Below, in pieces: positions 41,221 to 64,000 of a stretch of DNA of 64,000 bases (positions within the stretch are counted from its first letter, which is position 1; the number at the start of each line of letters is the position of its first letter). The notes under the pieces were generated by a model. The model had not been told where the DNA came from and did not search any database. It saw only the letters and a list, made by a program, of their open reading frames with translations. Source of the stretch: a virus; the IMG/VR virus record IMGVR_UViG_3300045988_126112, positions 179,965 through 243,964 of that record; one strand, 5' to 3'. The translations under genes and the position numbers were made by a program.

Positions 41221-41262
41221 AAAAATTCACCCATAGCTTTAAGCTATGGGTGTTTTATTTTT
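41221..41262. terminator. bidirectional terminator between convergent genes
   Basis: CACCCATAGC tttaa GCTATGGGTG, flanked by an A-run and a T-run. Confidence 0.85.
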
Positions 41263-42104
41263 TATATAGTTAATGCTTGGTTAGCATAAGTTATATTTAT
41301 AGTTGCTGCATATTGAGCAGATGTAGTTACAGTTACAGTATTTTCAGTTGAAGAATAATCTATAAATAATTTTTCTCCAGCTGCAGTTTTTGCAGTTACA
41401 TCTATTGCATTTTTACCTTTATTATGAGTTATTGTACAGCTATATAATCCGTCATCATCTAAAGCCCAATTAGTAGTAGCTACAGTAGTAATTAATGTAT
41501 CTACTTTAGAAGACCAGTTTTCTGCAGATATTAAATCCAATACAGCTTTATTTGCATGTGTATGTTTAGAATCTGATATACCACCACTTCCACCTAAAGC
41601 ATCATCTAATTCTGATCTAGTAACATATCCTTTATCATTGTTTAAAAGAGATATATTATTATTTTTATATATAATAGTACTAGGAACACCTTCTATAGCT
41701 CCCCATTTAACTGGTGCATCCCATTTAGTTATTTTAGCATCAGTTATTTTATTTAATGCTGCTAAATTAGTATGGTCATGTAATTCAGATTGTAATGCAT
41801 ATCCAGCATTATTTGTAAATGCTCCTAAGTCAGTAGGTTTATTTTTTAATTCATTATAATTACCTGAAGTTGCAACAGAATGTAATCCAGTTATCATTGA
41901 AGCTGGATGTGATTCAGGATGGACATAGTAGTTAGCATTAGCAGGTATACCAGCTAATTTAGTATGTTCAGCTGCGGACATTAAACCAGCAGCATCATCA
42001 GAAACTACTGTTTTTGGTGCTTTATTTTTTTCTAATCCATCTAATACTGTTTTTGTATTATCTGGTAGATTTTTTAATTTAAGTAAGACATCTCTTTGTT
42101 TCAT
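41262..42104 (-). CDS. tail fibre protein (KNLPDNTK anchor family)
   Basis: N-terminus MKQRDVLLKLKNLPDNTK. VATSGNYNELKNKP, HDH and HTH motifs. C-terminal knob module. Confidence 0.7.
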   Translation of the reverse strand: MKQRDVLLKLKNLPDNTKTVLDGLEKNKAPKTVVSDDAAGLMSAAEHTKLAGIPANANYYVHPESHPASMITGLHSVATSGNYNELKNKPTDLGAFTNNAGYALQSELHDHTNLAALNKITDAKITKWDAPVKWGAIEGVPSTIIYKNNNISLLNNDKGYVTRSELDDALGGSGGISDSKHTHANKAVLDLISAENWSSKVDTLITTVATTNWALDDDGLYSCTITHNKGKNAIDVTAKTAAGEKLFIDYSSTENTVTVTTSAQYAATINITYANQALTI

Positions 42105-42127
42105 TTATAATTCACTCCTTTATACTT

Positions 42128-42436
42128 TTAATATTTAATAATCAATTCACCAGCATATTTATCTATTGAATAAATGTATAACGAATTTTTATCCAAAACC
42201 TTATAAGATACAAATACATCTTCACCAGCTTCTGAATCGACTAATTTTAAATCAATTATATCTTCTTCAGCTAAATTTAGCTTATGAGATATGAAATAAT
42301 AATATAATCCATCTGTAGATGTAGCCCAAAAAGTTTTATCTATAGCTTCTTTATGAGTACTAATTGATGAGGATTTATTATTTATTTTTTCTACCAAAGA
42401 TTGGCTTAATTCATTTTCTGTAATTCTTCCCATCAT
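42128..42436 (-). CDS. small fibre-associated protein with knob module
   Basis: N-terminus GRITENELSQSLVEKI is shared with 42772..43164. C-terminal knob module. Confidence 0.55.
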   Translation of the reverse strand: MMGRITENELSQSLVEKINNKSSSISTHKEAIDKTFWATSTDGLYYYFISHKLNLAEEDIIDLKLVDSEAGEDVFVSYKVLDKNSLYIYSIDKYAGELIIKY

Positions 42437-42454
42437 ATCACCCCACTAATTAGA

Positions 42455-42757
42455 TTAACCTTGTGCATCTGAATTATCTGAAGTATTGAGTGATACATTT
42501 TGTACTGTTTGTTTAATTATTTGGTTAGTACCTACAGCTGTTAAACCACATAGTATACCTTGCATTACAGTACTAATATCAATTGTTTCTTTTGTAGCAT
42601 AACTCATTCCACAACATATTGCCACTCCAGATACTGATAATATTATAGGTATACACCAGTTAGGTATTTTTTTGTGTTTTTTGACACCAACACCTAAAGC
42701 ATATAGAAGAACTACTACGATATAGTAATCATTACTAATATACATAGATAGATCCAT
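42455..42757 (-). CDS. holin
   Basis: 100 aa. TM segments YYIVVVLLYALGVGV and WCIPIILSVSGVAICCGM, glycine-rich third helix GILCGLTAVGTNQIIKQ, polar tail. ATG at 42757 with GGAGG 10 nt upstream. Confidence 0.6.
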   Translation of the reverse strand: MDLSMYISNDYYIVVVLLYALGVGVKKHKKIPNWCIPIILSVSGVAICCGMSYATKETIDISTVMQGILCGLTAVGTNQIIKQTVQNVSLNTSDNSDAQG

Positions 42758-42771
42758 ATCTATCACACCTC

Positions 42772-43164
42772 CTATCCTTTAGCTACATTTTTAAATACAA
42801 TAAGGTTAAATAAACAGTCTGGTGCATCTTCAGATGCGAACCATTCATTACTAGACATCATATTTATTGTAGTACCTGAAGAATTTATAGTATAATCATA
42901 ATCTTCTTCTAAATAAGTACTATTTTTAAATACCATTAATAAATCTTTTGATGCATTAAAATTAAAACTAGTTGGTATTGTTATTGAACTAGTTCCGTAT
43001 TTTAATGATATTGAACTTTTTAGATATTTTACTGGGCTAGCAGTAACAGTACCACCACCTCCACCAGAGCCACCTCCACTAGATGCAACTTCTTCTTTGA
43101 TCAAATTTTTAAGATATTGTATTAATGAGGCACTTAATTCATTTATAGTAATTTTACCTGCCAT
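42772..43164 (-). CDS. small fibre-like protein
   Basis: MAGKITINELSASLIQYL. Gly linker SSGGGSGGGGGT. AAGGGGG RBS before the ATG at 43164. Confidence 0.55.
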   Translation of the reverse strand: MAGKITINELSASLIQYLKNLIKEEVASSGGGSGGGGGTVTASPVKYLKSSISLKYGTSSITIPTSFNFNASKDLLMVFKNSTYLEEDYDYTINSSGTTINMMSSNEWFASEDAPDCLFNLIVFKNVAKG

Positions 43165-43266
43165 TAAAAACACCCCCTTATATAGATATTAATATATTGT
43201 TTGATTAAAATATGGGCTAAATCATAACATATATATAAATTAATTTAAGAAAGGGGGTTAATTGTC

Positions 43267-43884
43267 TTGACTAGCAACTTACAGAAACTTACTAAATCTC
43301 TTCAAATTTATACTGATAATAAATCATTTAATAGTGTTATACTTTCAGTAAATACATATGAAGAATTGACAACAAATGAAACATTACAAGCTTATGTTTC
43401 TGAAGGTATTAAATGCTTTGTAAAATTTGAAAAATGCTATTATAAGTATACTAAAAATGGATGGGAAAAAGATAAACTATATGAATATTCAGATAATCCA
43501 CCAAATGATACTAATATGATATGGTATCCTAAACAACAATCTATAGTTACGACTCCAGAAGAAAAAGTAAATTTTGAAGTTTTATTACGAACAATAGAAA
43601 ATCTTGAAAGTAAAATAGATTTACTTGAAGCTAGAGTTAAATATTTAGAAGAACATGGATCTTCAGGAGGAGGAAGTAGTGGAGGAGATACTCCAAGTGA
43701 GGATATTATAAATACAGCTATAATGATAGATACAAACACTCCTTTATTAATAGATGAGAATACTATATTATTATTTAATAAAAGTAGCTCTTCTAAACCT
43801 GAAGAAAGTATTGAAAATGCTTTGATGATTGATAAAACAAATGCATTAAAAATTAATGACAATGAAATATTTTTAATTAAATAA
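43267..43884 (+). CDS. fibre-like protein
   Basis: TTG start with GGGGG RBS. N-terminus NLQKLTKSLQIYTDNK is shared with 14437. Coiled coil then the HGSSGGGSSGG linker. Confidence 0.55.
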   Translation: MTSNLQKLTKSLQIYTDNKSFNSVILSVNTYEELTTNETLQAYVSEGIKCFVKFEKCYYKYTKNGWEKDKLYEYSDNPPNDTNMIWYPKQQSIVTTPEEKVNFEVLLRTIENLESKIDLLEARVKYLEEHGSSGGGSSGGDTPSEDIINTAIMIDTNTPLLIDENTILLFNKSSSSKPEESIENALMIDKTNALKINDNEIFLIK

Positions 43885-43899
43885 GGAAGGTGAATAATA

Positions 43900-46275
43900 A
43901 TGGCAACAATAACAGGAAAAACTATTGAAGAATTAAATTCTTCAAATTTTTTAAGTTCAGTAACAGGAAATGAAATAGTACCAGTATATGTAAGAGGTAC
44001 TGGAACTACAACTTTTCAATTAAAAGCACTTAAAGATTATTTGGGAGCTAATGATGATAAAACATATATCCCAATTACAGATGATAAAGGAGTAAACTAT
44101 AGAATCTATTTAAAAAATGGAGATTTAGTAAAGATAAAAGAAGATGCGTTTACTGGACGTACCCCATCTTCTGGAGAAAATAATTTATATGATGGTTTAA
44201 TAATCAATTCTATGTATGGTGCTGGTACTGAAGCTGGTGTAATAACTCCAGTTTCTCATAGTTTTATAGAATTATATAACTTCCAAGAACAAGAAATAAA
44301 TCTTAAAGGATTATATCTTTGGTATAGAGCTAAATCAGGAAACTGGCAATCTTTAGAATTACAAGGAATAATTCCAGCAAGACATTCATTTCTTATAAGA
44401 TGTGCTCAACAAATGGATCCTTATAGTGATTCAGTAACTGTTCCAATATTAGACTATGATATGGAATGGGATATTAAATTATCTAATCAAGGATTTTCTG
44501 TTTATCTTTGTATAGGTAGTGAAACACCAGAAGATAATCCATTAAGAAAAACATTAGACTCTTTAGGTCAAGTTTCTTCAACTAATGGTAGATATATAGA
44601 TTTATTAGGTGCTGGTGGAAAGAAAGAAGAGGAAACTGTATGGGCTTATGAAACTAGATATTTACATTGTATGGATAAAAATACTGGTATTCATAGAATA
44701 GACTATGCTAATAGTGGTACTAAAAATATAGGTTCAAATGCTTTAGTTAAACAAAATAATGAAGCTGACTGCGAACCAATAGATTACACTAATTGTGATA
44801 CAACTAAATATAGACCTAGAAGTTTAAAAGATGGTAGATGGACTGAGTTCTATGATAAAGTTACTCAATCTCAAACATCACCAGCATTAATAAATATATC
44901 TTTTGGTCAAGAAGATACTAGTAGATGTTTCTGCTTTAGAACACCAGTTGCTAGAGAAGGATTTGTTTATTATAGAAAAGTAGGAGAAAATTTATGGAAT
45001 AGTGAGCTTACTAGTATGAGTATTGTAAAAGATATGGAAGGTGTAAGTACTGTTCATAAAGCAAAAATAAGTAATTTAGAAGTTGGGATATATGAATATA
45101 AAGTAGGATATGAAGGTTGCTGTTCAGATATAGCAACATTTGAAGTTAAAAATTATAATAATCAAGAGCAAACAATTAATATGCTATGGACTTCAGACCA
45201 ACAAAGCTGGACTGAAAGAGAATATGATGTATGGAAAATAGCTGCTCAACATTTAAGACAAAATAATGGTTATAAGAAATATGATTTCCATTTAAATACA
45301 GGAGATATATCTCAAAATGGTAATAGATGTTGGGAATGGAGATTATATTATAATTATTCTGGAGAATTAGTAAGAAATATTCCTCATATGATAACTGCTG
45401 GTAATAATGACTTAGTATCTAAAAAATTTAGTGATGCTTATGAGCATTATATTTATGAAGATAAAAAATTTGCTAATTCAGTATATTATTTTGATTTAGG
45501 ATTTACTCATTTTATTTGTTTAAATAGTAATACAGATTTTACTTATGTAAATGGTAAAGGTACAGAAGGTGGATATGCAAGTACTGATGCATTCCTTCAA
45601 GCACAAATGGATTGGTTTGATCAACATATGACAGAAGTTAATCAAAGAGAAACTAAGCCTAGATGGGTAATAGTTTATGCTCATTTATCTCCATTTACAG
45701 TTGGTAGAACTATAAGACTTCAAAGATGGGTAGCTCATTTTGAAAAATGGAAAATAGATTTAGTTCTATGTGGTCATAACCATGCATATTCTAGAAGTAA
45801 AGCATTAAAAACTGGATATGATTTTGATAAATCACCAGCTTATAATGATTATGTAACTAAAGTTAGTGGTAGTTCAGAATTAAAAATAGTAGATGAATTC
45901 CAAGCTGATGGTGTTACTGAAATAGATAGAAATGAACACAAAGCTGATGGTGTTGTTTATATATTAAACCATGCTTGTGGATTTAAACTTTCAGGTAAAG
46001 AAAAACCAATAACTCTACCTACATCATTACAAGGCACTAAACATGCAAATGCTGATGGAGCTCCATGGTGGATAGTTAAACAAAAATTACCAACTAATCC
46101 ATGCTATGCTACATTAAGTATAGGATATGATAAAATAGAATACAAATTCTATGAAATAACTGGTATTATAAAATATGACCAATATAAAAATACAATAGTA
46201 AGCGATGATTTATCAAAAATATCAGATAGCTTATTTGATCAACTTACTATAAATTATTCTGAAAGAAATAAATAG
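43900..46275 (+). CDS. lamin-tail-domain plus purple-acid-phosphatase-like metallophosphoesterase
   Basis: LTD signature SHSFIELYNFQEQEINLKGLYLWY. Metallophosphatase motifs GDISQNGN, GNND, VYAH, GHNHAYSR. Confidence 0.75.
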   Translation: MATITGKTIEELNSSNFLSSVTGNEIVPVYVRGTGTTTFQLKALKDYLGANDDKTYIPITDDKGVNYRIYLKNGDLVKIKEDAFTGRTPSSGENNLYDGLIINSMYGAGTEAGVITPVSHSFIELYNFQEQEINLKGLYLWYRAKSGNWQSLELQGIIPARHSFLIRCAQQMDPYSDSVTVPILDYDMEWDIKLSNQGFSVYLCIGSETPEDNPLRKTLDSLGQVSSTNGRYIDLLGAGGKKEEETVWAYETRYLHCMDKNTGIHRIDYANSGTKNIGSNALVKQNNEADCEPIDYTNCDTTKYRPRSLKDGRWTEFYDKVTQSQTSPALINISFGQEDTSRCFCFRTPVAREGFVYYRKVGENLWNSELTSMSIVKDMEGVSTVHKAKISNLEVGIYEYKVGYEGCCSDIATFEVKNYNNQEQTINMLWTSDQQSWTEREYDVWKIAAQHLRQNNGYKKYDFHLNTGDISQNGNRCWEWRLYYNYSGELVRNIPHMITAGNNDLVSKKFSDAYEHYIYEDKKFANSVYYFDLGFTHFICLNSNTDFTYVNGKGTEGGYASTDAFLQAQMDWFDQHMTEVNQRETKPRWVIVYAHLSPFTVGRTIRLQRWVAHFEKWKIDLVLCGHNHAYSRSKALKTGYDFDKSPAYNDYVTKVSGSSELKIVDEFQADGVTEIDRNEHKADGVVYILNHACGFKLSGKEKPITLPTSLQGTKHANADGAPWWIVKQKLPTNPCYATLSIGYDKIEYKFYEITGIIKYDQYKNTIVSDDLSKISDSLFDQLTINYSERNK

Positions 46276-46287
46276 GTGGTGATATAA

Positions 46288-49200
46288 ATGCCAAGATTAT
46301 ATATTGATGGAGAATGGAGAGAAGTTGTTAACTCCTCTAATTTTCCAATAATAAATCTTAGTAAATCATATAAGAGTCAATATCTTGAAGGTGCATTAGA
46401 AGAAATAGCTACTTGGAATAATAAAAGTTTAGAAAAGATAGCAACTATAAATACTACTTTAACTAAACACAAAAGTGATATTGATTATCTTAAAGAACAT
46501 GGTGGTGGAGGTTCAGGAGGTGGTGGAGGTGGAACAACACTTCCAACTATAACAACTACAACTGAATCTCCAATAGTTATAGATCCAGATGCCAATTTAG
46601 AAGTTTCAGTATTCTTTTCTTCTCCTAATTTAGGAGAAGGATTGGCATATATTTTATTTGACGATGCTGAAGTAGATACAATTAAAATAAAACAAGGTAA
46701 TAATGTTTTAAATTTAGGTAAGATGACTAATTTACAAACTAAAGTATCTGTATATGTAAGAGATAGAAGTCAATTAATGTCTAATATGATTTCTTGGACT
46801 GTAATAAGTGGTGGTATAGATTTAACATTAAATTTTGATTATGAAGCTGATTACATGATTGGTGATGAAATATTTATGGATTATGAAATATCTTCAGCTA
46901 CATCTAATCCAGTTAAATTAAAAATAAATATAGATGGAGATAATTATGAACAAGAATGTCAACAAGGATTCAACAGTTATGATTTATCTGAATTATCTGT
47001 TGGTGTCCATGTCATTAAGATATTTGCAACAGACGGAACATACACTTCTAAAACATATGAATTCAATGTTGTTGTAATTAACTCTGATTCATTATATTTA
47101 TCTACTACTTTTAAAGGTGGAAAATTTGATTATGGTGTACCAATAATGGTAAACTATCGTATATCTGATGGTAGTTTAAGAAAATTTGAAGTTAAATTAT
47201 ATTTAGATAATAAGATATATAAAACATTATCATCTTCAAGAGGTTCTTATTATTGGACTATAACAGATATGAATATTGGAAATCACACATTCAAAATAGA
47301 AGTAAATGCTGATGATGATCATAAAGTTGTAGAAGGTTCTTTTACTGTAGTAGAAGGAGATTATACTCCATTAAGTATAAATAAACAAGGATTGGTATTT
47401 AGATTAGACCCAACAACTAAAACTAATCAAGATGAAGATAGAGCTAATCCTACATTTAATGGTGTTGGATTGGAATTACATGGATTCAACTTCTCATCTA
47501 ATGGATGGGTTGATGGAGAGTTAGTATGTGATGGTGGTGCTTACGGTATAATTGATTATAGCCCATGGGCTGATAATGCTACTAGAGGTTCAACAATAGA
47601 AGTTTATTATAAATGCACAGACATAGGAATGGATCAAGCTAAAGTATTAGACTATTCTGATACTAAGAGTCAAAAAGGATTTAGTGTAGGATTAGACCAA
47701 TGTTCAATGCGTTCTATAGCTAATACTGGTATAGGATTTGTTAATCCAGATAAGTATATAAAAGTATCATTTGTTATAGATAGAAATAATAAATTTGCTC
47801 ATGTATATATAAATGGTGTTTGCTCAAGAAGTTTTCAATTAAATGATTCAGGTTCTGGTGTTGGAGCTATATATGAAGACTTTTCACATGATGGAAAAAT
47901 TTATATAAACTGTGATAGTTTAATGGCAAATATAGGTAGTTGTAGAATAAAGGATATATTAGTATATAGACGTGCTTTAAGTAAAGATGAAATATTAAAG
48001 AATACTTTAGCTTATGAACTTGATATGTCTGTACAAAAAATAAATTATAATTTTGAATTTAATAATAGTACATTATCAAAGATGAAAATGTATGGTAGTA
48101 CAGAAGGTATGAGTTTATATCAAGCTAATACAATGAGATTAAAATATGAATCAGCTAATACAGAAAAATATGGTCAGTCATTTGATTTACCTTATTGTCT
48201 AGTACAATGGCAAGGTACTTCATCAATAGCTTATTCTATAAAGAATTATCAAGCTACATTACGTGATACTGATATGAAAGAATATTTATATACTCCATAT
48301 CCAAATGGAATACCTGAAAGTATATTCTGTTTTAAAGCAGACTATATGGAAAGTTCACATGGTAGAAATAGTGGTATAGCTAAATTCTTAAATGATTGTG
48401 TATTTACAATTAAGAATCCAGCTCAATTAAAAGATGGTAGAGTTAGAAATGCTATAAATGGATTCCCAATGTTAATGTATATTAATGATGAATTAATTGG
48501 TATTTATAACTTTAATACAGATAGATATTCAGCTAAGACATATGGATATACTGATGAAGAAAAAACTTTAGTATATGAAATAGCTGCAAACTCTGACAGT
48601 ACTGCTGGTGCTTTCTTTAAATATACTGGTACTGGTGACCCAACTGCATATTATAAAGCTGACTTTATGTGCTTATATCCACCAACAAGAGCTGCAGGTA
48701 ATGATAACTTTACTGAGATAAAAAGCTTAGTTGAATGGGTTCATGATGCAAGTGATGAAGAATTTAAAGAAAACTTTGAAAAGCATTTTAATAAGAAATA
48801 TGTACTAAGATATTTAATATATGTAAATCTTATGGGTGCTGTCGATTCACTAGGTAAGAATATGAAATTAGCTTCTTGGGATGGAGGAAATATCTGGTAT
48901 ATTCAACCTTATGACTGTGATACAACTATTGGATTAGATAATAGTGGTGACTTAAGATTTAGTTCAGATATAGAAATAGGTGAAGCTGATACATTCAATA
49001 CTACAGCATCTAAACTATGGGAAAAAGTTATGAGAGTATTTGAAGAAGATATTAAAGCTGAATATGCTGAATTAAGAAGAACTACTTTAACTCTAGAAAA
49101 TATGTATAAATACATATTAGATGAGCAAATAAATAAAATTCCTAAATATTATTATAATAGAGATATGGAAAATAAATATCTTAAATATCCTACATGGATA

Positions 49201-52206: not shown

Positions 52207-52223
52207 GAAAGGAGGAAACATTA

Positions 52224-52523
52224 ATGTATATTAAAATGGAAAATGGATTAAGAGTTTTATATCCAGACAATGAAAAAAATGTATTAAGATCTAGACTTAC
52301 TAATGATAAATTTCATTACGTGTTTCTTTCTAGGGATGATTCTGAGGAGAATTATACAGAAGAAACTTTAGAATGTGATACAGGAATGGAAAGTGTATTA
52401 GTAATAGTAGAAAATGCTAGAAATAAAAAATTAAATGATTTAAATGCAAGATATGAATTGTTAAAAACTAAAATAAAAAATGCTAAAACTACAGAAGAAA
52501 TAACTTCAATAAATATATTTTAA
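52224..52523 (+). CDS. hypothetical small protein
   Basis: AAGGAGG 9 nt before the ATG at 52224. The track start at 52188 overlaps the previous gene. Confidence 0.5.
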   Translation: MYIKMENGLRVLYPDNEKNVLRSRLTNDKFHYVFLSRDDSEENYTEETLECDTGMESVLVIVENARNKKLNDLNARYELLKTKIKNAKTTEEITSINIF

Positions 52524-52680
52524 TAAAGAGACCACTATGGATAACATAGTGGTCTATCTTTTTATTTTTAACTATAAATTAATAAATTTGAAAGGAGGTA
52601 ATAGGTAATGCATAAAAAAGATGTATTAAAGATATTAAAAAATCTTCCAGACAATACTAAAGAATATATTGATAATTTAA
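52524..52680 (+). repeat. junction cassette A1 (terminator, spacer, RBS, anchor-peptide codons)
   Basis: Aligns over about 160 bp with 57617..57775, with scattered substitutions. Confidence 0.8.
52529..52570 (+). terminator. intrinsic terminator (part of junction cassette A1)
   Basis: AGACCACTATG gataa CATAGTGGTCT, then ATCTTTTTATTTTT. Confidence 0.85.
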
Positions 52681-52988
52681 TTAAAGTTGTTAGTAATAAA
52701 CTCGATAATACAGATTTATATTTTGATGAAGAAAATAATAAAGCATACATCAAAAAAAGTGACGGAACTTTGCAAGGAACTGGTATGACGCTTCCGACAG
52801 GTGGTGGAAATATATCAGATGATATAATATCAGAAAAAACAACTTGGAGTTCTTCAAAAGTAAAACAAGAACTAAATAATATGAGCAATTCTATTGATGT
52901 AACTTATGATGAAACAAATAAAGAAATAATAGTTACATCTAATAGAGTTTCTTATGATGAAGCTAATAAACAAATAATATTAAGTTAG
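52608..52988 (+). CDS. short fibre protein (KNLPDNTK anchor family)
   Basis: MHKKDVLKILKNLPDNTKEYIDNL. TWSSSKV motif. Confidence 0.6.
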   Translation: MHKKDVLKILKNLPDNTKEYIDNLIKVVSNKLDNTDLYFDEENNKAYIKKSDGTLQGTGMTLPTGGGNISDDIISEKTTWSSSKVKQELNNMSNSIDVTYDETNKEIIVTSNRVSYDEANKQIILS

Positions 52989-52999
52989 GGGTGATAATT

Positions 53000-55789: not shown

Positions 55790-55936
55790 GCACCACATCC
55801 ATATATCAAAGTGATGGCACAGTTGGGTGTGGAAGTATTATTGCCATACAAGACGACGGAACCTTAATATGTATCGGCGATGGAGAAAATTCGTTAGAAG
55901 GAGTAATACTAGCATCTTTATCGGAGGTGAATTATA

Positions 55937-57568: not shown

Positions 57569-57616
57569 TAAAATTATGAACTAGTTTTTTGTAGAATATA
57601 AAATATTTATTTTATT

Positions 57617-57775
57617 AAAGAGACCACTATGGGTAACATAGTGGTCTTTGTTTTTTATTTTGAACTATAGATTAATGAATTTGAAAAGGAGGTAAGGTAA
57701 AATGCGTAATAAAGACGTATTAAGAAAATTAAAGAATCTTCCAGATAATACTAAGGAATATATTGATAATAATGA
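57617..57775 (+). repeat. junction cassette A2
   Basis: See 52524..52680. Confidence 0.8.
57621..57660 (+). terminator. intrinsic terminator (part of junction cassette A2)
   Basis: AGACCACTATG ggtaa CATAGTGGTCT, then TTGTTTTTTATTTT. Confidence 0.85.
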
Positions 57776-60700
57776 ATTAGTTAAAGTTATTACAGATTTT
57801 GAAATAATTAGTACTGGAAAAGTTGCTAAGGTTTATACAGATAGTTTAACAGCTGGTAGAAGATATAGATTCCCATTTGAATCATATCCTAATGTCTCAT
57901 CTGCTGCAATAATTAAGAAATATGATGATGGTACTACTAAAACTATAACAACAATGACAAAAAATACAGATTATATATATGTATCAGCAATGTATAAAGC
58001 ATTTGATATATACCATAGAAGTGCATTTGGTGGTATGGGTAGAATAAATGGTTCATTTGGAACAACATCTAGTGAATATACTTCCACATTTACAAAAGTT
58101 GTATTAGATACTTTATCAGATAGACTTTTTGAACCAACAAAAGATTATCATCCAGCAACTAAAAAATATGTAGATGATAATAAAGTAATCGTTCCTACAA
58201 ATATAAGTGTATTTACTAATGATTCAAAATATATTAATCAAATTAAAGTTTTACCTGTTGAATATGATAATGATAAAATGGTGAATGTGCAAAATTTGGA
58301 TCCACATAGTATATATGTTGTACCAAGTGATATAGATTATTTGGATTTAGGATGTATGGGAGAGTCAAATAGATTAGTAACTGTACTTGCTACACCAAAT
58401 ACAGAAGAATTTATCTATACTGGAAATAAGACAGATAAATATATATCTTTTAGATTTGGAGCAAGAACTCATACTATTTATTTTAAAACTGACACAGAAT
58501 CAAGTCGTATAGAAAGATATCCATATTATTTAACTCCAAGTAATAATGAAGCATATATACCTAAAAATGATTATAATCCAACTACAAAGAAATATGTAGA
58601 TGATAAAGTAGCTGGAATAGTTAATTCAGCACCAGAAACTTTAGATACATTACAAGAATTAGCTAAAGCTTTAGGAAATGATGCTAACTTTGCAACTACT
58701 GTATCTACTCAAATAGGTAAAAAAGTTGATAAAGTTGATGGTATGAGCTTAACTCATAATGATTTAACAAAAGAACTAAAAGCTAATTATGACGCTGCTT
58801 ATGCTCATAGCCAAGCTAAGCATAGCTATAATGATTTAACTGATAAACCAGTTATACCTAGTATAGCTGGATTAGCTACTACAGAATATGTAGATAGTAA
58901 ATCATTACCTATATTATTCTTAGATGATAGTAATAGAACTGGTGATAAATTATTCCCATTATTACCAGAGCATAATTTAGTATTTTTAGCTGGTGATGCT
59001 CAATTTACTGATGAAAATGGAAATATAAATATAATATATGGTCTTTGTTATTCAGATTTACAATCTGATGGAAGTAAATTACTTACTGAATATAGAACTA
59101 GTAAATCAGCATCAATATCTGCTAATGGTACATTAAAATCATTTGATTATATAGATGAATATACAAAAACTATACTAACATTGTTTAAAAATGCTCCATC
59201 TGGGAAAGTATTAGTTAAAAACCAAAATAATACATTTGAATGGGTTGAACTACCAACTAGCCCAGATTTAAGTTCTTATGCACCTATTACTAGTCCAGTA
59301 TTTAAAAAGTCTATAACTGTTGGTAATGCGGCTCCAGATAAAACTCTAGGAGAAAATTCTATAATAGTAAGTTCTTATGGAGAAGCATCAGGAATTTATA
59401 CATTATCAAATGGTAAATCAGCAATTGCTAGAGCTGATTATTCTCATGCAGAAGGATATGCTTCTATGTCAAAAGGTCTATATTCTCATGCAGAAGGTGA
59501 ACAAACTGGTGCAATAGGTCAATCATCACATTCAGAAGGACATGGTGGAGATGCTAATGGAGTAGCTTCTCATGCAGAAGGCTATTATACTACTAGTAAT
59601 GGAAAATATTCTCATGCAGAAGGATATCGTACTATTGCAACTGGAGATAATCAACATGTACAAGGGAAATATAATATAGAAGATAAAGCTAACAAATATG
59701 CTCATATTGTTGGTAATGGATATCGTGATGAACTTAATTATAAAGATTATCGTTCAAATGGATATACATTAGACTGGTCTGGTAATGGTTGGTTTGCTGG
59801 TAAAGTTACTCAAGAAGGAACTCCAACAGATGATAAAGACCTTACTAATAAAAAATATGTTGATGATACTGTAGTATTTAAGAAATTATCTTCTATAGTA
59901 GAATTAAATAGTGATAAAAAAATAATTAATGTTGAAAAATTTGAAGATAATAAAGTTTATTATTTTATAAATGATATTAATGAAGGGACTACAACAATTA
60001 TTCCTATACTTTTATATAAAGGTGGAGAAAAAAATAATATAATAATGATATATCCTAATGATAGATTTATAACTATGAGTTATAATGTATCAGCAAATGA
60101 ATTTTTTAGTTTTAGTGATATGCAAAGTGTTAAATTTAATTTAGTTGATAAAACACGTGAATACAATACTAGCAGAAGTGTAACTAAAAAAGTTAGTGCA
60201 GAACAAGTTTTAACTAAAACTAATACAACTGCATTTACACCAACTGCTGATTATCATCCAACAACTAAAAAATATGTAGATGATAAAGTAGTTGGATTAG
60301 CTACAGAAAGTTATGTAGATAGCAAAACTTCAATGGAAAATGTTATATATGAAGGTAATGGTACTGGTCCTGATGTAATTTCAGATTATTGGACTGGATG
60401 CCCAGTTGTTAGTGGAAATGGATGCTGGGTAATAAATAAACAAATAGAATTTGATTCATCTAAACCTAATCCATATTATTTACTATGCGATACTACTTTA
60501 TATTCTCCAGAAAATTCAACATTTGATAAAACAAATAGTGCATGGATATATCCTAAAGTTCCTAATAGAGGTACTATATTCATATGTAATAAATATAATA
60601 ATGAAAATAAATTAGTATTACCATGGGATGATGTATCTAATCCACAAAAAATAAAATTATATACTAAAACAGAATTAGCTGCTGCAATATCTAATGGTGA

Positions 60701-60779
60701 TTTAGAAGCAACATCAGATGAAGTTAAAGTTATGCTTGCAAATGTTTTAGGAGGTGATTATAGTGCCAAAAAAAATTAA
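57702..60779 (+). CDS. long tail fibre protein (KNLPDNTK anchor family)
   Basis: MRNKDVLRKLKNLPDNTKEYIDNN. Four P-x-x-DYxP-x-TKKYVDD motifs. APETLDTLQELAKALGNDANFATT. YNDLTDKPVIPS. A run of YSHAEG repeats. Confidence 0.8.
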   Translation: MRNKDVLRKLKNLPDNTKEYIDNNELVKVITDFEIISTGKVAKVYTDSLTAGRRYRFPFESYPNVSSAAIIKKYDDGTTKTITTMTKNTDYIYVSAMYKAFDIYHRSAFGGMGRINGSFGTTSSEYTSTFTKVVLDTLSDRLFEPTKDYHPATKKYVDDNKVIVPTNISVFTNDSKYINQIKVLPVEYDNDKMVNVQNLDPHSIYVVPSDIDYLDLGCMGESNRLVTVLATPNTEEFIYTGNKTDKYISFRFGARTHTIYFKTDTESSRIERYPYYLTPSNNEAYIPKNDYNPTTKKYVDDKVAGIVNSAPETLDTLQELAKALGNDANFATTVSTQIGKKVDKVDGMSLTHNDLTKELKANYDAAYAHSQAKHSYNDLTDKPVIPSIAGLATTEYVDSKSLPILFLDDSNRTGDKLFPLLPEHNLVFLAGDAQFTDENGNINIIYGLCYSDLQSDGSKLLTEYRTSKSASISANGTLKSFDYIDEYTKTILTLFKNAPSGKVLVKNQNNTFEWVELPTSPDLSSYAPITSPVFKKSITVGNAAPDKTLGENSIIVSSYGEASGIYTLSNGKSAIARADYSHAEGYASMSKGLYSHAEGEQTGAIGQSSHSEGHGGDANGVASHAEGYYTTSNGKYSHAEGYRTIATGDNQHVQGKYNIEDKANKYAHIVGNGYRDELNYKDYRSNGYTLDWSGNGWFAGKVTQEGTPTDDKDLTNKKYVDDTVVFKKLSSIVELNSDKKIINVEKFEDNKVYYFINDINEGTTTIIPILLYKGGEKNNIIMIYPNDRFITMSYNVSANEFFSFSDMQSVKFNLVDKTREYNTSRSVTKKVSAEQVLTKTNTTAFTPTADYHPTTKKYVDDKVVGLATESYVDSKTSMENVIYEGNGTGPDVISDYWTGCPVVSGNGCWVINKQIEFDSSKPNPYYLLCDTTLYSPENSTFDKTNSAWIYPKVPNRGTIFICNKYNNENKLVLPWDDVSNPQKIKLYTKTELAAAISNGDLEATSDEVKVMLANVLGGDYSAKKN

Positions 60780-61248
60780 TTTAGATGAACTACAACAAAC
60801 TGCAGTAACATTAAAAAATTATATAGATGATAAAACTAAAGATATTGCCAATTACGAATTAGCCGTAAATGATGGAGAATTATACTTAAAAAAGGATAAA
60901 GTAGGTAATGGAGCAACAGATCCTGTATATGGTGATAGTTTAACTTCACTAACTGGTGATCCTGATATTTACTTAACAAAAGATAAATATCAATATGTTA
61001 CTGGTGTAAATACTGTAGATAATTTAATATGGCTACCTTCTACTGATATGCCTACATTCCTTAAAATACGCTTATATGCTATAAATTGTAAAATGAAATC
61101 TACTTTTGACAATGCTGTAAAATGGAAAAATGGACAAAATCCTGCTTCAGGTAAATTTGAGATGACAGCTAATAATATATATGAGTTTGTATTAACTTAT
61201 ATAAATGGAAGTTGGATAGGAGAATTTATAACTTATGATAATGCATAG
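60763..61248 (+). CDS. fibre-associated protein (INLxELQQTA family)
   Basis: GTG at 60763 with GGAGG 9 nt upstream gives MPKKINLDELQQTAVTLKNYIDD, parallel to 61355. Confidence 0.55.
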   Translation: MPKKINLDELQQTAVTLKNYIDDKTKDIANYELAVNDGELYLKKDKVGNGATDPVYGDSLTSLTGDPDIYLTKDKYQYVTGVNTVDNLIWLPSTDMPTFLKIRLYAINCKMKSTFDNAVKWKNGQNPASGKFEMTANNIYEFVLTYINGSWIGEFITYDNA

Positions 61249-61277
61249 TATATTTCTTCAAAATATAATAATATAAA

Positions 61278-61354: not shown

Positions 61355-61531
61355 ATGGCGAAAAAAATTAATTTAGAAGAATTACAACAAACTGCACAAA
61401 CATTAAAAAATTATATTGATGCAACAATTGATGATAGGATGAATAAGTTAAATATAAAAACTATAAGCCAATCAGAATATGATTCTTTAGATAGTAAAGA
61501 ACCTAACACATTATATCTAATTACCGATTAA
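61355..61531 (+). CDS. 58-aa fibre-associated protein (INLxELQQTA family, short form)
   Basis: ORF below the track cutoff: MAKKINLEELQQTAQTLKNYIDATIDD...SQSEYDSLDSKEPNTLYLITD. AGGAGG RBS. Confidence 0.5.
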   Translation: MAKKINLEELQQTAQTLKNYIDATIDDRMNKLNIKTISQSEYDSLDSKEPNTLYLITD

Positions 61532-61558
61532 AATATTATAAGAAGGGAGAACTTTTTT

Positions 61559-63190
61559 ATGACTATAATGAAAATTAAACCTTCTGGATATGATGCTGGT
61601 GCATGGGATAGTAAAACTTATCCAATGGAAAATGCTTATGATGATGATTTGACAACTGTTGCAAGATGCACTTTAAGAAGAATTAGTGGTGAAAAAAAAT
61701 GTAAATATAATTTTTCTTTACCAGAACTTCCAGAAGGATCAATTATCAATAAAGTGAACTTACGTTTACTTTTAAAATGTGCAAATAGTAATTCAACAGG
61801 AGCTTGCTTTTTATCTATAAGATTAAACGATACTAATTTAACATTAAAAAAAATACATTTAGAATTTGTAAATGATGGTATTAATTATAGTATACCTCTT
61901 ACTGAAGAGCAATATAAAAGTTTAAATAGTTTAAGTTTTGTTGGTAAATATGATACAATAACGTTTACTTGTTATGCTTATATATTTGATATGTATATTG
62001 AATTAGATTATACAGATTTGAATGAAACTATGCTATCTGATGATAGTGAAATTTGGATAGCTAAAGGAGAAAATCATGTTATTAATGTAAATGCATATCC
62101 AAAGACAACTATAAATTGGACTTCAGATAAATCTGATATAGTTAAATTAGTACCAGCTGATAATGGATTTTCATGTAATGTTATTGGTAAGAAAATTGGA
62201 AGTTGTAATATTACTGCAACACACAGTAATAATCCAAATTGTACAAAAACTTTTTCTGTTAATGTTAATGAAATAATAGAAGATATTTCTTATAGTTTCA
62301 ATAGTGGTATTAATAATATAAAAGGATTAGCAATAGGAGAAAATAAAATAAAGAAAATATATTTAGGAGATAAAAAATTATTTACGACAAGTAATCCACG
62401 TATACCTCATACTAATTTTAATTTCAGAAATATTACACAAGATTTGACTATGAATTTATATACAAGATTAATACCAGAAAAATATATTAATGGTATATTA
62501 TGCCGTGTTAAAACTTATATAGATACAGCAGGACATTTAGCTGGTGCACTTAGAACAACTAATGATTCTAGTGGTATTACTGGTGGTGATAGTTCGGCAA
62601 CTTATGATTTTATTCCAGTATTTCCTGGAGAAGATATAATAATAGATATACCAACTACACAATATGGAATAGGATTGGTTGGATATGGTGAAACTAAAGA
62701 ATATTATCAAACTTGGTTCGGACCAGATTATGGATGGGCATATTATAATAAATATACAGATGCTGATATTGAGAAATATAATAATATGACTTGTACTATA
62801 CCAGCAGAAGGAGTTAATTATATTAGATGGTGTATGGATTCTTTCGATACTGATAAATATTATTTTAGAAGATATAGTGTTCAAATTATTGATGCTATTG
62901 CTTATCCATTAAATAGTACAGAGGGTAATGAAATAATCTATAAGTCTTTAGATGAAAGTGTAGCAGTAATTGAAAATAATAATATGATTAGAGCAAAATC
63001 TGCTGGTTCATGTATTATACAAGTTACATGTGGAACAATAACTACAAATATAAATTTAACAATAAATGATAATAGTAGTGATTTTGTAGATTATACAAAA
63101 CAAGCAACCGAACAAGAACCTGATAAAGAACCTGAACAAACACCTGATAATAATGATAACAATACAGAAAATAATACAGAAGAAGAATAA
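61559..63190 (+). CDS. tail protein with two Big_2-like Ig domains and an acidic tail
   Basis: SDKSDIVKLVPADNGFSCNVIGKKIGSCNITA and LDESVAVIENNNMIRAKSAGSCIIQV. C-terminus EQEPDKEPEQTPDNNDNN. Confidence 0.6.
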   Translation: MTIMKIKPSGYDAGAWDSKTYPMENAYDDDLTTVARCTLRRISGEKKCKYNFSLPELPEGSIINKVNLRLLLKCANSNSTGACFLSIRLNDTNLTLKKIHLEFVNDGINYSIPLTEEQYKSLNSLSFVGKYDTITFTCYAYIFDMYIELDYTDLNETMLSDDSEIWIAKGENHVINVNAYPKTTINWTSDKSDIVKLVPADNGFSCNVIGKKIGSCNITATHSNNPNCTKTFSVNVNEIIEDISYSFNSGINNIKGLAIGENKIKKIYLGDKKLFTTSNPRIPHTNFNFRNITQDLTMNLYTRLIPEKYINGILCRVKTYIDTAGHLAGALRTTNDSSGITGGDSSATYDFIPVFPGEDIIIDIPTTQYGIGLVGYGETKEYYQTWFGPDYGWAYYNKYTDADIEKYNNMTCTIPAEGVNYIRWCMDSFDTDKYYFRRYSVQIIDAIAYPLNSTEGNEIIYKSLDESVAVIENNNMIRAKSAGSCIIQVTCGTITTNINLTINDNSSDFVDYTKQATEQEPDKEPEQTPDNNDNNTENNTEEE

Positions 63191-63196
63191 ATAAAT

Positions 63197-63276
63197 ACTA
63201 AAGTCATTACGATTGATTTCGTAATGGCTTTTTATTTTTTAACACTATTAATAAAATGAAAGGAGGTAATTATATA
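63197..63276 (+). repeat. junction cassette B2
   Basis: See 61278..61354. Confidence 0.8.
63201..63240 (+). terminator. intrinsic terminator (junction cassette B2)
   Basis: AAAGTCATTACGA ttgat TCGTAATGGCTTT, then TTATTTTTT. Confidence 0.85.
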
Positions 63277-64000
63277 ATGAAGAATAGACAAGTATTAAAA
63301 TTATTGCAAAATTTACCAGAAAATACAAAGAGCTATATAGATAATAAGGTGCCAAAAACATATGCTGGATCAGATACAGCAGGTGGTGTAGCAACTGAAG
63401 CTGCAAAATTAAGTAATAGTTTACTTATTGTGTGTGGTGCAATGCAGGGTGGTAAAAAAACACAATTTAATGGTTCATCTGCACAATCAATAATAATTAA
63501 TCCAGCATCAATAGGTGCTGCTTATTCAGATCATGACCATAATTATGCAGGTTCTTCAACTGCAGGAGGTACTGCTACAGAGGCTGCTAAAACTACTGGT
63601 ACTTTAACATTACAAACTAATGGTACAAATGCAATTACTTTTAATGGTAGTGCTAGTAAATCTTTAAACATAACTCCAGAATCTATAGGAGCTGCAGCTA
63701 GTACGCATACTCATAGTAATTATGCATTAACTTCACATACTCATTTATATGCTGCTTCAAAAACTGCAGGAGGTGTAGCAACTGAAGCTGCAAAAACTAG
63801 TGGTACTTTGACATTACAAACTAATGGTGTTTCAGCAATTACTTTTAACGGTAGTGCTAGTAAATCTTTAGATATAACACCAGATGTTATAGGAGCTGCT
63901 ACTAGTGACCATACTCATAGTAATTATGCATTAGTTTCACATACACATAATTATGCAGGTTCTTCAACTGCAGGAGGTACTGCTACAGAGGCTGCTAAAA
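63277..64000 (+). CDS. tail fibre protein with HxH-box tandem repeats (KNLPDNTK anchor family), 3'-partial
   Basis: MKNRQVLKLLQNLPENTKSYIDNK. 68-aa repeats carrying TAGGxATEAAK and S-[TD]-H-[TD]-H-[SN]-N-Y. Frame open to the window end; not in the ORF track. Confidence 0.75.
   Translation, partial: MKNRQVLKLLQNLPENTKSYIDNKVPKTYAGSDTAGGVATEAAKLSNSLLIVCGAMQGGKKTQFNGSSAQSIIINPASIGAAYSDHDHNYAGSSTAGGTATEAAKTTGTLTLQTNGTNAITFNGSASKSLNITPESIGAAASTHTHSNYALTSHTHLYAASKTAGGVATEAAKTSGTLTLQTNGVSAITFNGSASKSLDITPDVIGAATSDHTHSNYALVSHTHNYAGSSTAGGTATEAAK
63361..64000 (+). repeat. in-frame tandem repeats, 204-bp period
   Basis: Units start at 63361 (183 bp), 63544, 63748 and 63952. A 50-nt stretch at 63541.. 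recurs exactly at 63949... Confidence 0.85.

What the first reader, a model, noticed from the sequence alone, without database searches (positions are those of the whole stretch)
41262..64000. Multi-fibre locus: four receptor-binding-type proteins share one N-terminal anchor peptide
Four genes begin with the same ~24-residue peptide. They are MKQRDVLLKLKNLPDNTKTVLDGL (42104, minus strand), MHKKDVLKILKNLPDNTKEYIDNL (52608), MRNKDVLRKLKNLPDNTKEYIDNN (57702) and MKNRQVLKLLQNLPENTKSYIDNK (63277). After the peptide they diverge completely: a knob-module fibre, a 126-aa stub, a 1025-aa fibre with YSHAEG repeats, and an HxH-repeat fibre. The DNA encoding the peptide differs by many synonymous changes, so the peptide is under selection rather than recently copied. 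Between these genes lie enzymatic or adhesive proteins (GH16, LTD-phosphatase, CotH/LRR giant, Big_2 proteins). This suggests one docking site on the virion that accepts several alternative or simultaneous fibres, a branched multivalent adsorption apparatus. Its anchor motif matches nothing I recognise.
Basis: partly seen in the sequence, partly recalled or inferred. Interest (0 to 1): 0.7.

Follow-up and report, generated by a model that had tools for sequence, protein, structure and literature searches.

The report
Shared N-terminal plug on phage fibres
Four otherwise unrelated fibre genes of a roughly 244-kb uncultivated human-gut jumbo phage start with the same 24-residue peptide, which is most likely the constant attachment end of swappable host-recognition fibres; that principle is already known from other phages, but this peptide family is new and undescribed.

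Summary
Exactly four ORFs in the window (42104-, 52608+, 57702+, 63277+) start with M-x-x-[KR]-[DQ]-V-L-x-x-L-[KQ]-N-L-P-[DE]-N-T-K. Each follows a GGAGG ribosome-binding site, and the four share nothing significant after residue 24. The window is 100% identical to a 243,974-bp human-gut scaffold. The phage is a low-GC jumbo myophage, distantly related to PBS1/AR9/S6/phiR1-37.

The peptide is older than the four copies. Related phage lineages (CotH protein 56-66% identical) each carry it on two genes, the orthologues of A and D. B and C head extra cassettes that occur only in this lineage, and strains lacking the B cassette exist. An exhaustive profile search of 1.84 billion representatives finds 26 hits. 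Of these, 21-23 start at residue 1 with the peptide, fused to many different fibre bodies.

Homology between strains breaks exactly at the end of the peptide, at a TKxY[IV]D junction motif that also recurs inside the fibres.

Best reading: this is a constant N-terminal attachment module of modular fibres, analogous to the "conserved peptide" of Klebsiella phage secondary receptor-binding proteins (RBPs). No docking partner was found, and "one site, four fibres" remains untested. I rate it a new variant of a known kind, of moderate interest.

The parts
41262..42104 (-). Gene A, 280 aa. Class I peptide, then a shaft with GLMSxxxxKLxGIPANANYY and HPxSHPASMITGLxxVATSGxY repeats, then a C-terminal beta-sandwich.
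   Evidence: Orthologues P0004-P0008 (89-43% identical) keep the peptide.
42033..42104 (-). Class I peptide of A: MKQRDVLLKLKNLPDNTKTVLDGL.
   Evidence: 50-51 bits.
52608..52988 (+). Gene B, a 126-aa 'stub'. Class I peptide (52608-52679), a predicted helix, then three Y[FD]DExNK beta repeats. The GH16 gene follows almost immediately.
   Evidence: It is present or absent as a unit with the GH16 and 543-aa genes.
57702..60779 (+). Gene C, 1025 aa. Class I peptide (57702-57773), TKKYVDD junction motifs, an APETLDTLQELAKALGND fibre motif, YSHAEG repeats, a distal globular domain and a C-terminal connector helix.
   Evidence: Its body is hypervariable between strains.
63277..64000 (+). Gene D, 5' part only; 503 aa in the identical scaffold L027. 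Class I peptide (63277-63348), then ~50-aa repeats with HxH motifs.
   Evidence: Orthologues lie right after the ~99-aa gene in L021, L024 and L025.
52529..52555 (+). Terminator-like hairpin at the head of the B cassette. The same hairpin is at 57619-57649, ahead of C.
   Evidence: The crossover that removed the B cassette in L014 maps here.
57619..57649 (+). Terminator-like hairpin at the head of the C cassette, followed by AACTATAGATTAAT and GGAGG.
63200..63231 (+). Terminator-like hairpin ahead of D. A near-identical hairpin is at 61282-61313, ahead of the 58-aa ORF.
60705..60776 (+). C-terminal connector motif of C: EATSDEVKVMLANVLGGDYSAKKN. Its LGGDYS codons contain the GGAGGTGA Shine-Dalgarno sequence of the next ORF.
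   Evidence: The same motif ends 10 of the anchored proteins found elsewhere.
60763..61248 (+). 161-aa protein (GTG start) carrying the second shared N-terminal peptide, class II: (M)PKKINLDELQQTAVTLKNYIDDK. It overlaps the end of C.
61355..61531 (+). 58-aa protein: class II peptide plus PF24243 'Phage tail tip domain'.
43267..43884 (+). 205-aa protein with a class II-like N-terminus (TSNLQKLTKSLQIYTDNKS) and a Gly-rich linker.
42128..43173 (-). Minus-strand operon upstream of A. It holds a 133-aa and a 102-aa protein that share a third N-terminal motif (G[KR]ITxNELSxSL), with a holin (PF16079) between them.
   Evidence: Conserved in all relatives.
43900..52523 (+). Conserved core of the locus: phosphoesterase (Metallophos, Pur_ac_phosph_N, weak LTD), the 1972-aa CotH protein, and a ~99-aa protein (52224-52523).
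   Evidence: Syntenic in L021, L023, L024, L025 and L030.
52991..57568 (+). Remainder of the B cassette: a GH16 plus Big_2 protein (932 aa) and a 543-aa protein with no family hit.
   Evidence: Deleted together with B in L014 and L030.
61559..63190 (+). 543-aa protein with a weak Big_2 hit, between the 58-aa ORF and D.

Best explanation
The four genes lead four fibre cassettes in the adsorption-apparatus locus of a roughly 244-kb gut jumbo myophage. The shared 24-residue peptide is a constant N-terminal module. It consists of a short amphipathic segment (DVLxKLKNL), an invariant Pro, then NTK-x-Y-I-D.

I infer that it is the end by which these presumably trimeric fibres are mounted on the virion. 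Any body fused behind it could then be installed on the same kind of socket. This is what the 29-aa 'conserved peptide' of Klebsiella phage KP32 RBP2 has been shown to do.

Its last residues coincide with a junction motif, TKxY[IV]D, that recurs inside the fibres. Recombination at these junctions, and at the repeated terminator-promoter-RBS-peptide cassette heads, swaps, deletes and adds fibre modules between strains.

Shown here: the peptide's conservation, N-terminal position and modularity, the recombination breakpoints, and cassette presence/absence.

Inferred: virion attachment, the shared socket, trimer formation, and whether the four fibres are mounted together or compete.
For: 1. Four clean members in the window and nothing else.

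2. The fibre nature of the carriers:
- C hits about ten PHROG tail-fibre families and the PDB chains 'Tail collar fibers gp4' and 'Fiber Upper gp68'.
- D has HxH repeats. A D-type relative (P0242) ends in an SDRRLKSDI stretch that I recognise, from memory, as resembling the S74-type intramolecular chaperone end of fibres and tailspikes.
- A has fibre repeats and a beta-sandwich tip, with weak BFVD matches, mostly to tail-fibre proteins.

3. Conservation beyond the body:
- A orthologues at 44% overall identity keep 11-12 of the first 17 residues.
- The L024 A orthologue (37% overall, with a different shaft module) keeps 13 of 17.
- In 16 anchors from at least four lineages, M1 and P14 are invariant and L7, N12 and T17 are present in 15.

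4. Each related lineage (L021, L024, L025) has exactly two carriers, the A and D orthologues.

5. The exhaustive profile search gives 26 hits with E<=1e-3 among 1.84 billion representatives. Of these, 21-23 begin at residue 1 with the peptide, on bodies of 71-607 aa that belong to different 50%-identity clusters.

6. Breakpoints:
- Homology between L015 and the window's C stops at window 57777, that is at codon 25-26.
- L011 joins the peptide's TKEYID to the internal TTEYVDSK.
- P0237 joins NTKKYIDD directly to a module that follows an internal ATKKYVDD in P0228.

7. The B cassette is lost by crossover in the repeated cassette head. B-less strains exist as a complete 239,055-bp scaffold.

8. 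Synonymous sites are close to saturation and dN/dS is below 1.

9. Precedent: deleting the first 29 aa of KP32 RBP2 abolishes its incorporation, and that peptide mounts a foreign enzyme domain (PMC13352976). Conserved N-terminal peptides as short as 7 aa are described for multi-RBP phages (PMC6872550).
Against: - No partner protein or socket was identified. No T4gp10-like or other known branching domain appears in any protein scanned in the window.
- AlphaFold gives low confidence for the peptide: pLDDT 30-50 in both A and B.
- An anchor-like motif occurs two or three times in tandem inside P0234 and P0241. The peptide also weakly resembles the widespread fibre repeat KLxGIPANANYY (hhalign probability only 4.8%). 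It could therefore be a structural unit rather than a plug.
- The peptide is only moderately conserved between A-type and D-type copies (13 of 24).
- There are no expression or virion data.
Confidence: 0.6

Rival explanations
1. The peptide is a self-contained structural element, for example an N-terminal cap or trimerisation nucleus of a coiled-coil or beta-fibre. It is conserved because it starts folding of the trimer. Attachment to the virion would then use another part of each protein or a separate adaptor.
For: - The same kind of motif, (E/D)DLIKLKNLPxN...NLIxKT, recurs internally two or three times in P0234 and P0241.
- In B, AlphaFold places helices at 4-11 and 15-31 that run straight into the shaft (low confidence).
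- The peptide aligns, weakly, with the common fibre repeat KLxGIPANANYY found a few residues further on in A itself.
- Its end is the generic TKxY[IV]D module junction.
Against: - 21-23 of the 26 database hits have it at residue 1 and only there.
- Very different shaft types (coiled coil, HxH repeats, YadA-like repeats, collagen-free beta repeats) follow it, so it is not tied to one fold.
- Phage fibres generally attach by their N-terminus (established knowledge).
- The hhalign probability is 4.8%, which is not significant.
Confidence: 0.2
2. The conservation is mainly at DNA level. A portable cassette head (terminator, late promoter, RBS and the first codons) is duplicated and homogenised by recombination, and the peptide is a passenger of expression and recombination signals.
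For: - B and C share 85% of the 110 nt upstream and 83% of the peptide DNA, including the same terminator hairpin.
- The crossover that deleted the B cassette lies in this repeat.
- D and the 58-aa ORF share another hairpin.
Against: - A and D share no upstream similarity above background with B/C or with each other (64-73%, the AT-rich baseline), yet they keep the peptide.
- pS is 0.42-0.74 with dN/dS below 1.
- The peptide is kept in orthologues of lineages whose proteins are only 37-66% identical.
- The peptide is conserved as amino acids rather than as nucleotides.
Confidence: 0.08
3. The carriers are not baseplate fibres. They are neck, collar or head fibres or other virion decorations, and the peptide docks them on the capsid or neck.
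For: - The best solved-structure hit of C is a 'tail collar fiber' (9d93).
- Proteins that share A's repeats carry the phi29 head-fibre domain PF11133.
- The locus is not next to recognisable baseplate genes in the window. It lies between the DNA polymerase gene and a protein I read as a terminase large subunit, from a PRQHGKT Walker-A-like motif only.
Against: - PF11133 in those proteins maps to a region that A does not share.
- PHROG hits for C are overwhelmingly 'tail fiber'.
- The HxH repeats of D and the S74-like end I recognise in P0242 are typical of tail fibres (plus established knowledge).
- This rival changes the location, not the mechanism.
Confidence: 0.2
4. The peptide is a recognition tag for an assembly chaperone, or a propeptide removed on maturation, like the capsid-targeting sequence shared by the T4 internal proteins.
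For: Only the formal analogy: several unrelated proteins share a short N-terminal tag (established knowledge of the T4 IPI-III capsid-targeting sequence).
Against: - No conserved protease-type cleavage motif follows the peptide in all four.
- The carriers are fibre-like, not internal proteins.
- No chaperone gene is associated with all four.
Confidence: 0.04

Closest known systems
Klebsiella phage dual/multi-RBP systems: anchor domain, T4gp10-like branching domain and N-terminal 'conserved peptide' of secondary RBPs (KP32, K11, KP34, Menlow, PhiK64-1/RaK2; PMC6872550, PMC13352976)
   Same: A short N-terminal peptide (7 to about 30 aa) precedes unrelated receptor-binding or enzymatic bodies. 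The peptide is the constant part and the body is swapped. Truncated 'stub' RBPs that carry only the peptide occur, as with B. Several RBPs are present per virion in jumbo phages.
   Different: - In those phages each secondary RBP has its own peptide, conserved between phages. Here one peptide family sits on two to four paralogues within one genome.
- I compared no sequences with those peptides.
- No T4gp10-like branching domain was found here.
- The host is probably a Gram-positive gut anaerobe.
- Function is demonstrated there and only inferred here.
SP6 / K1-5 / K1E tailspikes with 7- or 11-residue N-terminal peptides that bind an adaptor protein (as summarised in PMC6872550)
   Same: Very short N-terminal peptides are enough to mount alternative tailspikes on one adaptor.
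   Different: Podoviruses with two spikes. The adaptor is known there and none was identified here.
Ackermannviridae (CBA120-type) TSP1-4 branched complex and PhiKp24 hyperbranched fibres (PMC11414711, PMC9700779)
   Same: Many RBP genes in one locus, with N-terminal structural parts used for attachment.
   Different: The attachment modules there are folded domains of 50-400 aa that differ between the RBPs, not one shared 24-aa peptide.
Adenovirus fibre tail motif (FNPVYPY) shared by the two fibre genes of Ad40/41 (established knowledge, not tested here)
   Same: One conserved N-terminal peptide lets different fibre proteins occupy the same socket (the penton base).
   Different: A eukaryotic virus, with no sequence relationship.
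Recombination at conserved motifs in T-even distal tail-fibre genes ('His boxes', Tetart et al. 1998) and the segmented T4 long tail fibre gp34-37 (established knowledge)
   Same: Short conserved motifs (TKxY[IV]D here) act as module boundaries where strains differ. In some strains fibre C is split into two or three successive ORFs that could join end to end.
   Different: The motifs are different. End-to-end joining through the VLGGDYS connector and the class II peptide is my inference, not a demonstrated fact.

Membership tests
Branched RBP system of the Klebsiella-phage type (Latka et al. 2019) | Short conserved N-terminal peptide on RBPs that lack a full anchor domain | tested here: met
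   Four carriers in the window. The peptide is conserved in orthologues and sits on about 20 different bodies. This is analogy only; no sequence comparison with the Klebsiella peptides was made.
Branched RBP system of the Klebsiella-phage type (Latka et al. 2019) | A primary RBP with a T4gp10-like branching domain that offers the docking site | tested here: inconclusive
   No such Pfam or PHROG hit in any protein scanned in the window. Only about 71 kb of a roughly 244-kb genome was seen, and no HHpred-level search was run.
Branched RBP system of the Klebsiella-phage type (Latka et al. 2019) | The peptide is required and sufficient for incorporation of the RBP into the virion | not testable with these tools
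   Needs genetics or biochemistry, as was done for KP32 in PMC13352976.
Any described protein family that covers the peptide itself (Pfam-A, PHROGs v4) | A significant profile match over residues 1-24 | tested here: not met
   No Pfam family covers it. The phrog_18608 match to A nominally starts at residue 9, but its profile positions correspond to the generic fibre motif. There are no relatives in INPHARED, IMG/VR or the GTDB representatives.
Phage tail fibre proteins (generic) | Sequence or fold similarity to known fibre proteins | tested here: met
   - C: PHROG tail-fibre families with E down to 1e-24, and PDB 9d93 and 6v8i fibre chains.
- A: weak BFVD fibre matches, E 3.5e-5 and low TM-score.
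- D: HxH repeats, but no family hit.
- B: no hit.
PBS1/AR9-like jumbo phages with multisubunit RNA polymerases | Split RNAP beta-like subunit genes, divergent family-B DNA polymerase and a related tail sheath | tested here: met
   phrog_2987 and phrog_3015 (E about 1e-57), PF20286 (E 7e-36), and tail sheath 24-29% identical to phiR1-37, Staphylococcus S6-like phages and PBS1. The relationship is distant. Uracil-containing DNA cannot be tested.
Segmented end-to-end fibre (T4 gp34-37 type) | Successive gene products join head to tail | not testable with these tools
   The only evidence is the recurrent pairing of a C-terminal ...MLxxVLGGDYS motif with an overlapping downstream ORF that starts with the class II peptide, together with split and fused versions of fibre C in different strains.

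The most novel reading that the evidence does not exclude
The locus encodes a two-level construction kit for fibres.
- A class I plug mounts alternative first segments on the virion.
- A second pair of elements chains further segments end to end: a C-terminal ...EATxxEVxxMLxxVLGGDYS helix and the class II N-terminal peptide (KKINLxELQQTxxTLKNYxD) of the next, translationally coupled ORF.
- TKxY[IV]D junctions let strains recombine modules.

The result would be strain-specific, multi-segment, possibly branched fibres on a jumbo phage of gut Firmicutes. Plugs of 20-25 residues could then be used to graft new receptor-binding modules.
Probability: 0.3. Interest if true: 0.65.

Novelty: new variant of a known kind. 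Interest (0 to 1): 0.42.

Why it matters
If the peptide is the mounting plug, it is a 24-residue tag that marks receptor-binding proteins in an abundant, uncultivated family of human-gut jumbo phages. About 245-kb genomes of this phage recur in many samples.

- It would give a simple way to find these phages' host-range determinants in metagenomes.
- It would give a handle for engineering them, as is now done with the Klebsiella 'conserved peptide'.
- The strain-level data show where the arms race with the host acts. At least a dozen different bodies sit behind one C-type plug, and whole cassettes are gained and lost.

It does not open a new principle. Modular RBPs with constant N-terminal attachment elements are well established.

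Tried and rejected
1. **Exact DNA-pattern scan for KNLPDNTK in IMG/VR.** It gave 10 hits. All were internal and unrelated, so they are chance matches.

2. **Word-indexed profile search of 5.8 billion proteins.** It found only two fragments from the same species, because the word filter limits a 24-aa query. The exhaustive search was needed.

3. **Stop-codon recoding.** The in-frame stop in fibre C of L011-L013 is a CAA-to-TAA point mutation. It is not TAG/TGA recoding, and there are no tRNAs in the window.

4. **Invertible-segment idea.** A is on the opposite strand, like the phage Mu G segment. The 'inverted repeat' is only 61-69% identical, A has its own conserved operon in all relatives, and no invertase was seen. 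I dropped the idea.

5. **Programmed frameshift fusing C to the next ORF.** An A8 run (60768-60775) lies in the overlap. The other junctions of the same type have no slippery run, and a GGAGG-N8-GTG/ATG start is conserved. Translational coupling of separate proteins is therefore more likely.

6. **Socket-count lead.** The 1099-aa fibre downstream of D has three SPxFTG units in the window strain, against one unit in L021 and L024. That matched three versus one plus-strand anchored genes. But strain L030 has only two anchored genes there and still has three units, so no simple rule holds.

7. **Head-fibre idea for A.** PF11133 in related proteins maps to a region that A lacks.

8. **Structure search for A.** No PDB match at E<1e-3. 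The AlphaFold models of B and of the N-termini have too low a confidence to use.

9. **Common origin of the peptide with the KLxGIPANANYY fibre repeat.** hhalign probability is 4.8%, so this is not supported.

10. **Bacterial-looking genes at the end of L014 as a host clue.** That stretch has 35-40% GC against 27% for the phage, so it is probably an assembly chimera.

11. **Shared promoter motif.** AACTATADATTAAT is not enriched in the window: 22 matches against 28.5 expected.

Full report
**1. The observation**

A six-frame motif scan finds the peptide exactly four times, each at an ATG that follows a GGAGG/GGAG Shine-Dalgarno sequence:
- A: 42104, minus strand
- B: 52608
- C: 57702
- D: 63277

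Twelve of 24 positions are invariant. A profile built from the four scores them at 51-57 bits in the six-frame translation of the window, and the next best stretch scores below 3 bits. This is not chance.

With the peptide removed, the four proteins show no significant similarity. The DNA of the peptide is 61-83% identical between copies. Proportional synonymous differences are 0.42-0.74, and dN/dS is 0.07-0.6.

- GH16 plus Big_2, Metallophos plus Pur_ac_phosph_N, and CotH are confirmed.
- LTD is only a sub-threshold hit.
- No LRR hit falls on the window protein itself.

**2. What genome this is**

GC content is 24-31% throughout. The window encodes split RNA-polymerase beta-like subunits, a divergent family-B DNA polymerase, a tail sheath and a tail tube protein.

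The sheath is only 24-29% identical to those of Yersinia phage phiR1-37, Staphylococcus S6-like jumbo phages and Bacillus PBS1. There is no megablast match in 50,697 phage records.

Window bases 51559-64000 are 100% identical to a 243,974-bp scaffold from a human-gut metagenome. The same proteins occur on contigs of 239-248.5 kb in many samples.

One copy of protein A is deposited in a MAG labelled Romboutsia timonensis. From memory, that organism's GC content is similar. This is a hint about the host, not evidence.

**3. Organisation of the locus**

Terminator-like hairpins at 52529, 57619, 61282 and 63200 divide the plus-strand part into transcription units:
- 205-aa protein, phosphoesterase, CotH, ~99-aa protein
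- B, GH16, 543-aa protein
- C, 161-aa protein
- 58-aa protein, Big_2 protein
- D and onward

B, C and D are each the first gene after a terminator. Downstream of the window, the identical scaffold continues with the rest of D (503 aa), a 375-aa protein, a 1099-aa fibre and a 717-aa protein that I read as a terminase large subunit from a PRQHGKT Walker-A-like motif only. A lies on the other strand, at the end of a small operon that also holds a holin.

**4. Comparative evidence**

*(a) Strains of the same species (93-98% nt identity)*

Strains differ mainly right behind the peptide.
- In L015, homology to C stops at window 57777 and a different body follows.
- In L011-L013, the peptide's TKEYID is joined to the internal TTEYVDSK, which deletes 368 codons.
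- In L014, and in the complete 239,055-bp scaffold L030, the whole B-GH16-543 cassette is absent.
- In L014 the crossover maps to the terminator and promoter repeat shared by the B and C cassette heads.

*(b) More distant lineages*

The CotH proteins of these lineages are 56-66% identical, and A is 37-45% identical. Synteny is kept. Each lineage has exactly two carriers: the A orthologue, and a D orthologue placed directly after the ~99-aa gene. B and C are therefore additions specific to this lineage.

A more distant relative (CotH 43% identical, contig of 239.6 kb) has no carrier in the 26.7 kb I could see around its CotH gene.

*(c) The peptide is better conserved than the bodies*

- 11-12 of the first 17 residues are kept where A is 44% identical overall.
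- 13 of 17 are kept in L024, whose shaft is a different module.
- The core is R-D-V-L-x-x-L-x-N-L-P-x-N-T, with M1 and P14 invariant in 16 of 16 anchors.

*(d) Exhaustive profile search*

A search of 1.84 billion 50%-identity representatives returned 26 hits at E<=1e-3. Of these, 21-23 begin at residue 1 with the peptide, on bodies of 71-607 aa.

At least twelve are C-type: the same MRNKDVLKKLKNLPDNTKEYID followed by different bodies. Ten end in the connector motif described in section 5.

One hit is a CEACAM-like animal protein, so E-values around 1e-4 in that search are not trustworthy.

**5. Further shared peptides**

The locus holds a second N-terminal family, class II: KKINL[DE]ELQQTxxTLKNY[IV]D. 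It occurs on the 161-aa and 58-aa proteins, and in a diverged form on the 205-aa protein.

In other strains fibre C is split into two or three ORFs. Each upstream ORF ends in ...EATxxEVxxMLxxVLGGDYSxxx. Each downstream ORF starts with a class II peptide and overlaps the upstream stop codon. The GGAGGTGA ribosome-binding site lies inside the LGGDYS codons.

In L030 a crossover between two class II-coding stretches removed the body of the 161-aa gene.

A third motif, G[KR]ITxNELSxSL, heads the 102-aa and 133-aa proteins next to A. A looser version is seen at 23122.

Short N-terminal motifs are thus a general design feature of this locus.

**6. Mechanism**

*Shown:* a constant N-terminal module under purifying selection. 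It sits on many different fibre bodies, and recombination junctions lie at its 3' end and in the cassette head in front of it.

*Inferred:* it mounts the fibres on the virion. The inference rests on three things:
- the general rule that phage fibres attach by their N-terminus;
- the fibre nature of the carriers;
- the direct precedent of Klebsiella phage KP32. There, deleting the 29-aa conserved peptide of RBP2 prevents incorporation, and the peptide can mount a foreign endosialidase domain (PMC13352976). Peptides as short as 7 aa are described in PMC6872550.

I could not identify the socket. No T4gp10-like domain appears in the proteins scanned. A tempting count correlation with SPxFTG units in the 1099-aa fibre failed in strain L030.

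Whether A-D are mounted together, compete for one site, or sit on the baseplate rather than the neck cannot be decided from sequence.

The main rival is a purely structural cap or repeat. It is kept alive by two proteins with internal tandem copies of a similar motif and by a weak, non-significant resemblance to a common fibre repeat.

A purely DNA-level explanation fits B and C, which share 85% identity upstream. It does not fit A, D or the orthologues.

**7. Comparison with what is known, and novelty**

In function this looks like the anchor and conserved-peptide logic of multi-RBP phages: Klebsiella KP32, KP34, Menlow and PhiK64-1; SP6 and K1-5; and the Ackermannviridae. The two adenovirus fibres that share one tail motif are a further analogue.

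It differs in four ways:
- One peptide family sits on two to four paralogues within a genome.
- No branching domain is detectable.
- The phage is a distant PBS1/AR9-like gut jumbo phage.
- The plug ends in the same junction motif that delimits internal modules.

The peptide has no relatives in the annotated phage records I searched, in IMG/VR or in the GTDB species representatives, and no convincing match in Pfam or PHROGs.

I rate it a new variant of a known kind, with interest about 0.4. It is a well-supported and useful annotation with a plausible mechanism, not a new principle.

Noticed in passing
window 60705-61531, and L014, L015, L030: There is a second shared N-terminal peptide, class II: KKINL[DE]ELQQTxxTLKNY[IV]D. 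It sits on small ORFs that overlap the stop codon of upstream fibre segments ending in ...MLxxVLGGDYS. Fibre C is one ORF in the window and two or three ORFs in other strains. This may be an end-to-end chaining system.
   Followed up: partly
window 42128-42436(-), 42772-43173(-), 23122-23970(+): A third N-terminal motif, G[KR]ITxNELSxSL or GYNELSPYVQSLL, heads several small proteins with Gly-rich linkers. One of them lies far from the locus, at 23122, and has PHROG tail-fibre hits.
   Followed up: partly
window, 32 long ORFs: No TGA stop codon is used (TAA 24, TAG 8), and there are no tRNA genes in 64 kb. This may just reflect the 27% GC content. I did not test for TGA reassignment.
   Followed up: no
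window 60768-60775: A run of eight A lies in the overlap between fibre C and the 161-aa ORF, which is in the +1 frame. Slippage could fuse the two. The run is absent at the other junctions of this type.
   Followed up: partly
L027 14390-17689 (about 7 kb beyond the window end): A 1099-aa fibre has three tandem ~50-aa units that contain SPxFTGVP. Orthologues in L021 and L024 have one unit. The count does not track the number of anchored genes in strain L030.
   Followed up: yes
L021 5559-9474 and L023 6028-9981: In relatives, the phosphoesterase gene (one 791-aa ORF in the window, 43900-46275) is split into an N-terminal and a Metallophos part. Extra ORFs lie between or after the parts, with CapR/DUF723-like faint hits. 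This looks like an inserted mobile element or intron.
   Followed up: no
window 53337-53816: The GH16 protein contains a tandem duplication of about 240 nt at 92% identity, encoding a repeated ~80-aa domain. Strains L011 and L032 have one copy (848-849 aa against 929-932 aa).
   Followed up: partly
window 16812-17999 and 18077-20836: Two adjacent proteins carry a VgrG3-like C-terminal domain (PF21277). The larger also has a GDSL esterase domain. They are probably virion-associated cell-wall hydrolases.
   Followed up: no
L011-L013, locus position 10232 (corresponds to window C codon 445, around 59032-59037): Three samples from one study carry a CAA-to-TAA nonsense mutation in fibre C, after a 77-aa product that still bears the peptide.
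   Followed up: yes
L014 15200-15859: The end of contig OGPA01001353.1 has 35-40% GC and encodes YlbF/YlbG-like bacterial proteins. It is probably an assembly chimera and should not be used to infer a host.
   Followed up: partly
P0234 and P0241: Two proteins from unknown contigs carry the anchor-like motif (E/D)DLIKLKNLPxN at the N-terminus and again one or two times internally, about 50 residues apart.
   Followed up: no
L011 15322-15576 and L030 21353-21607: Some strains have an extra 84-aa gene (PF13876, Phage_gp49_66) inserted just upstream of D. It is absent from the window.
   Followed up: no
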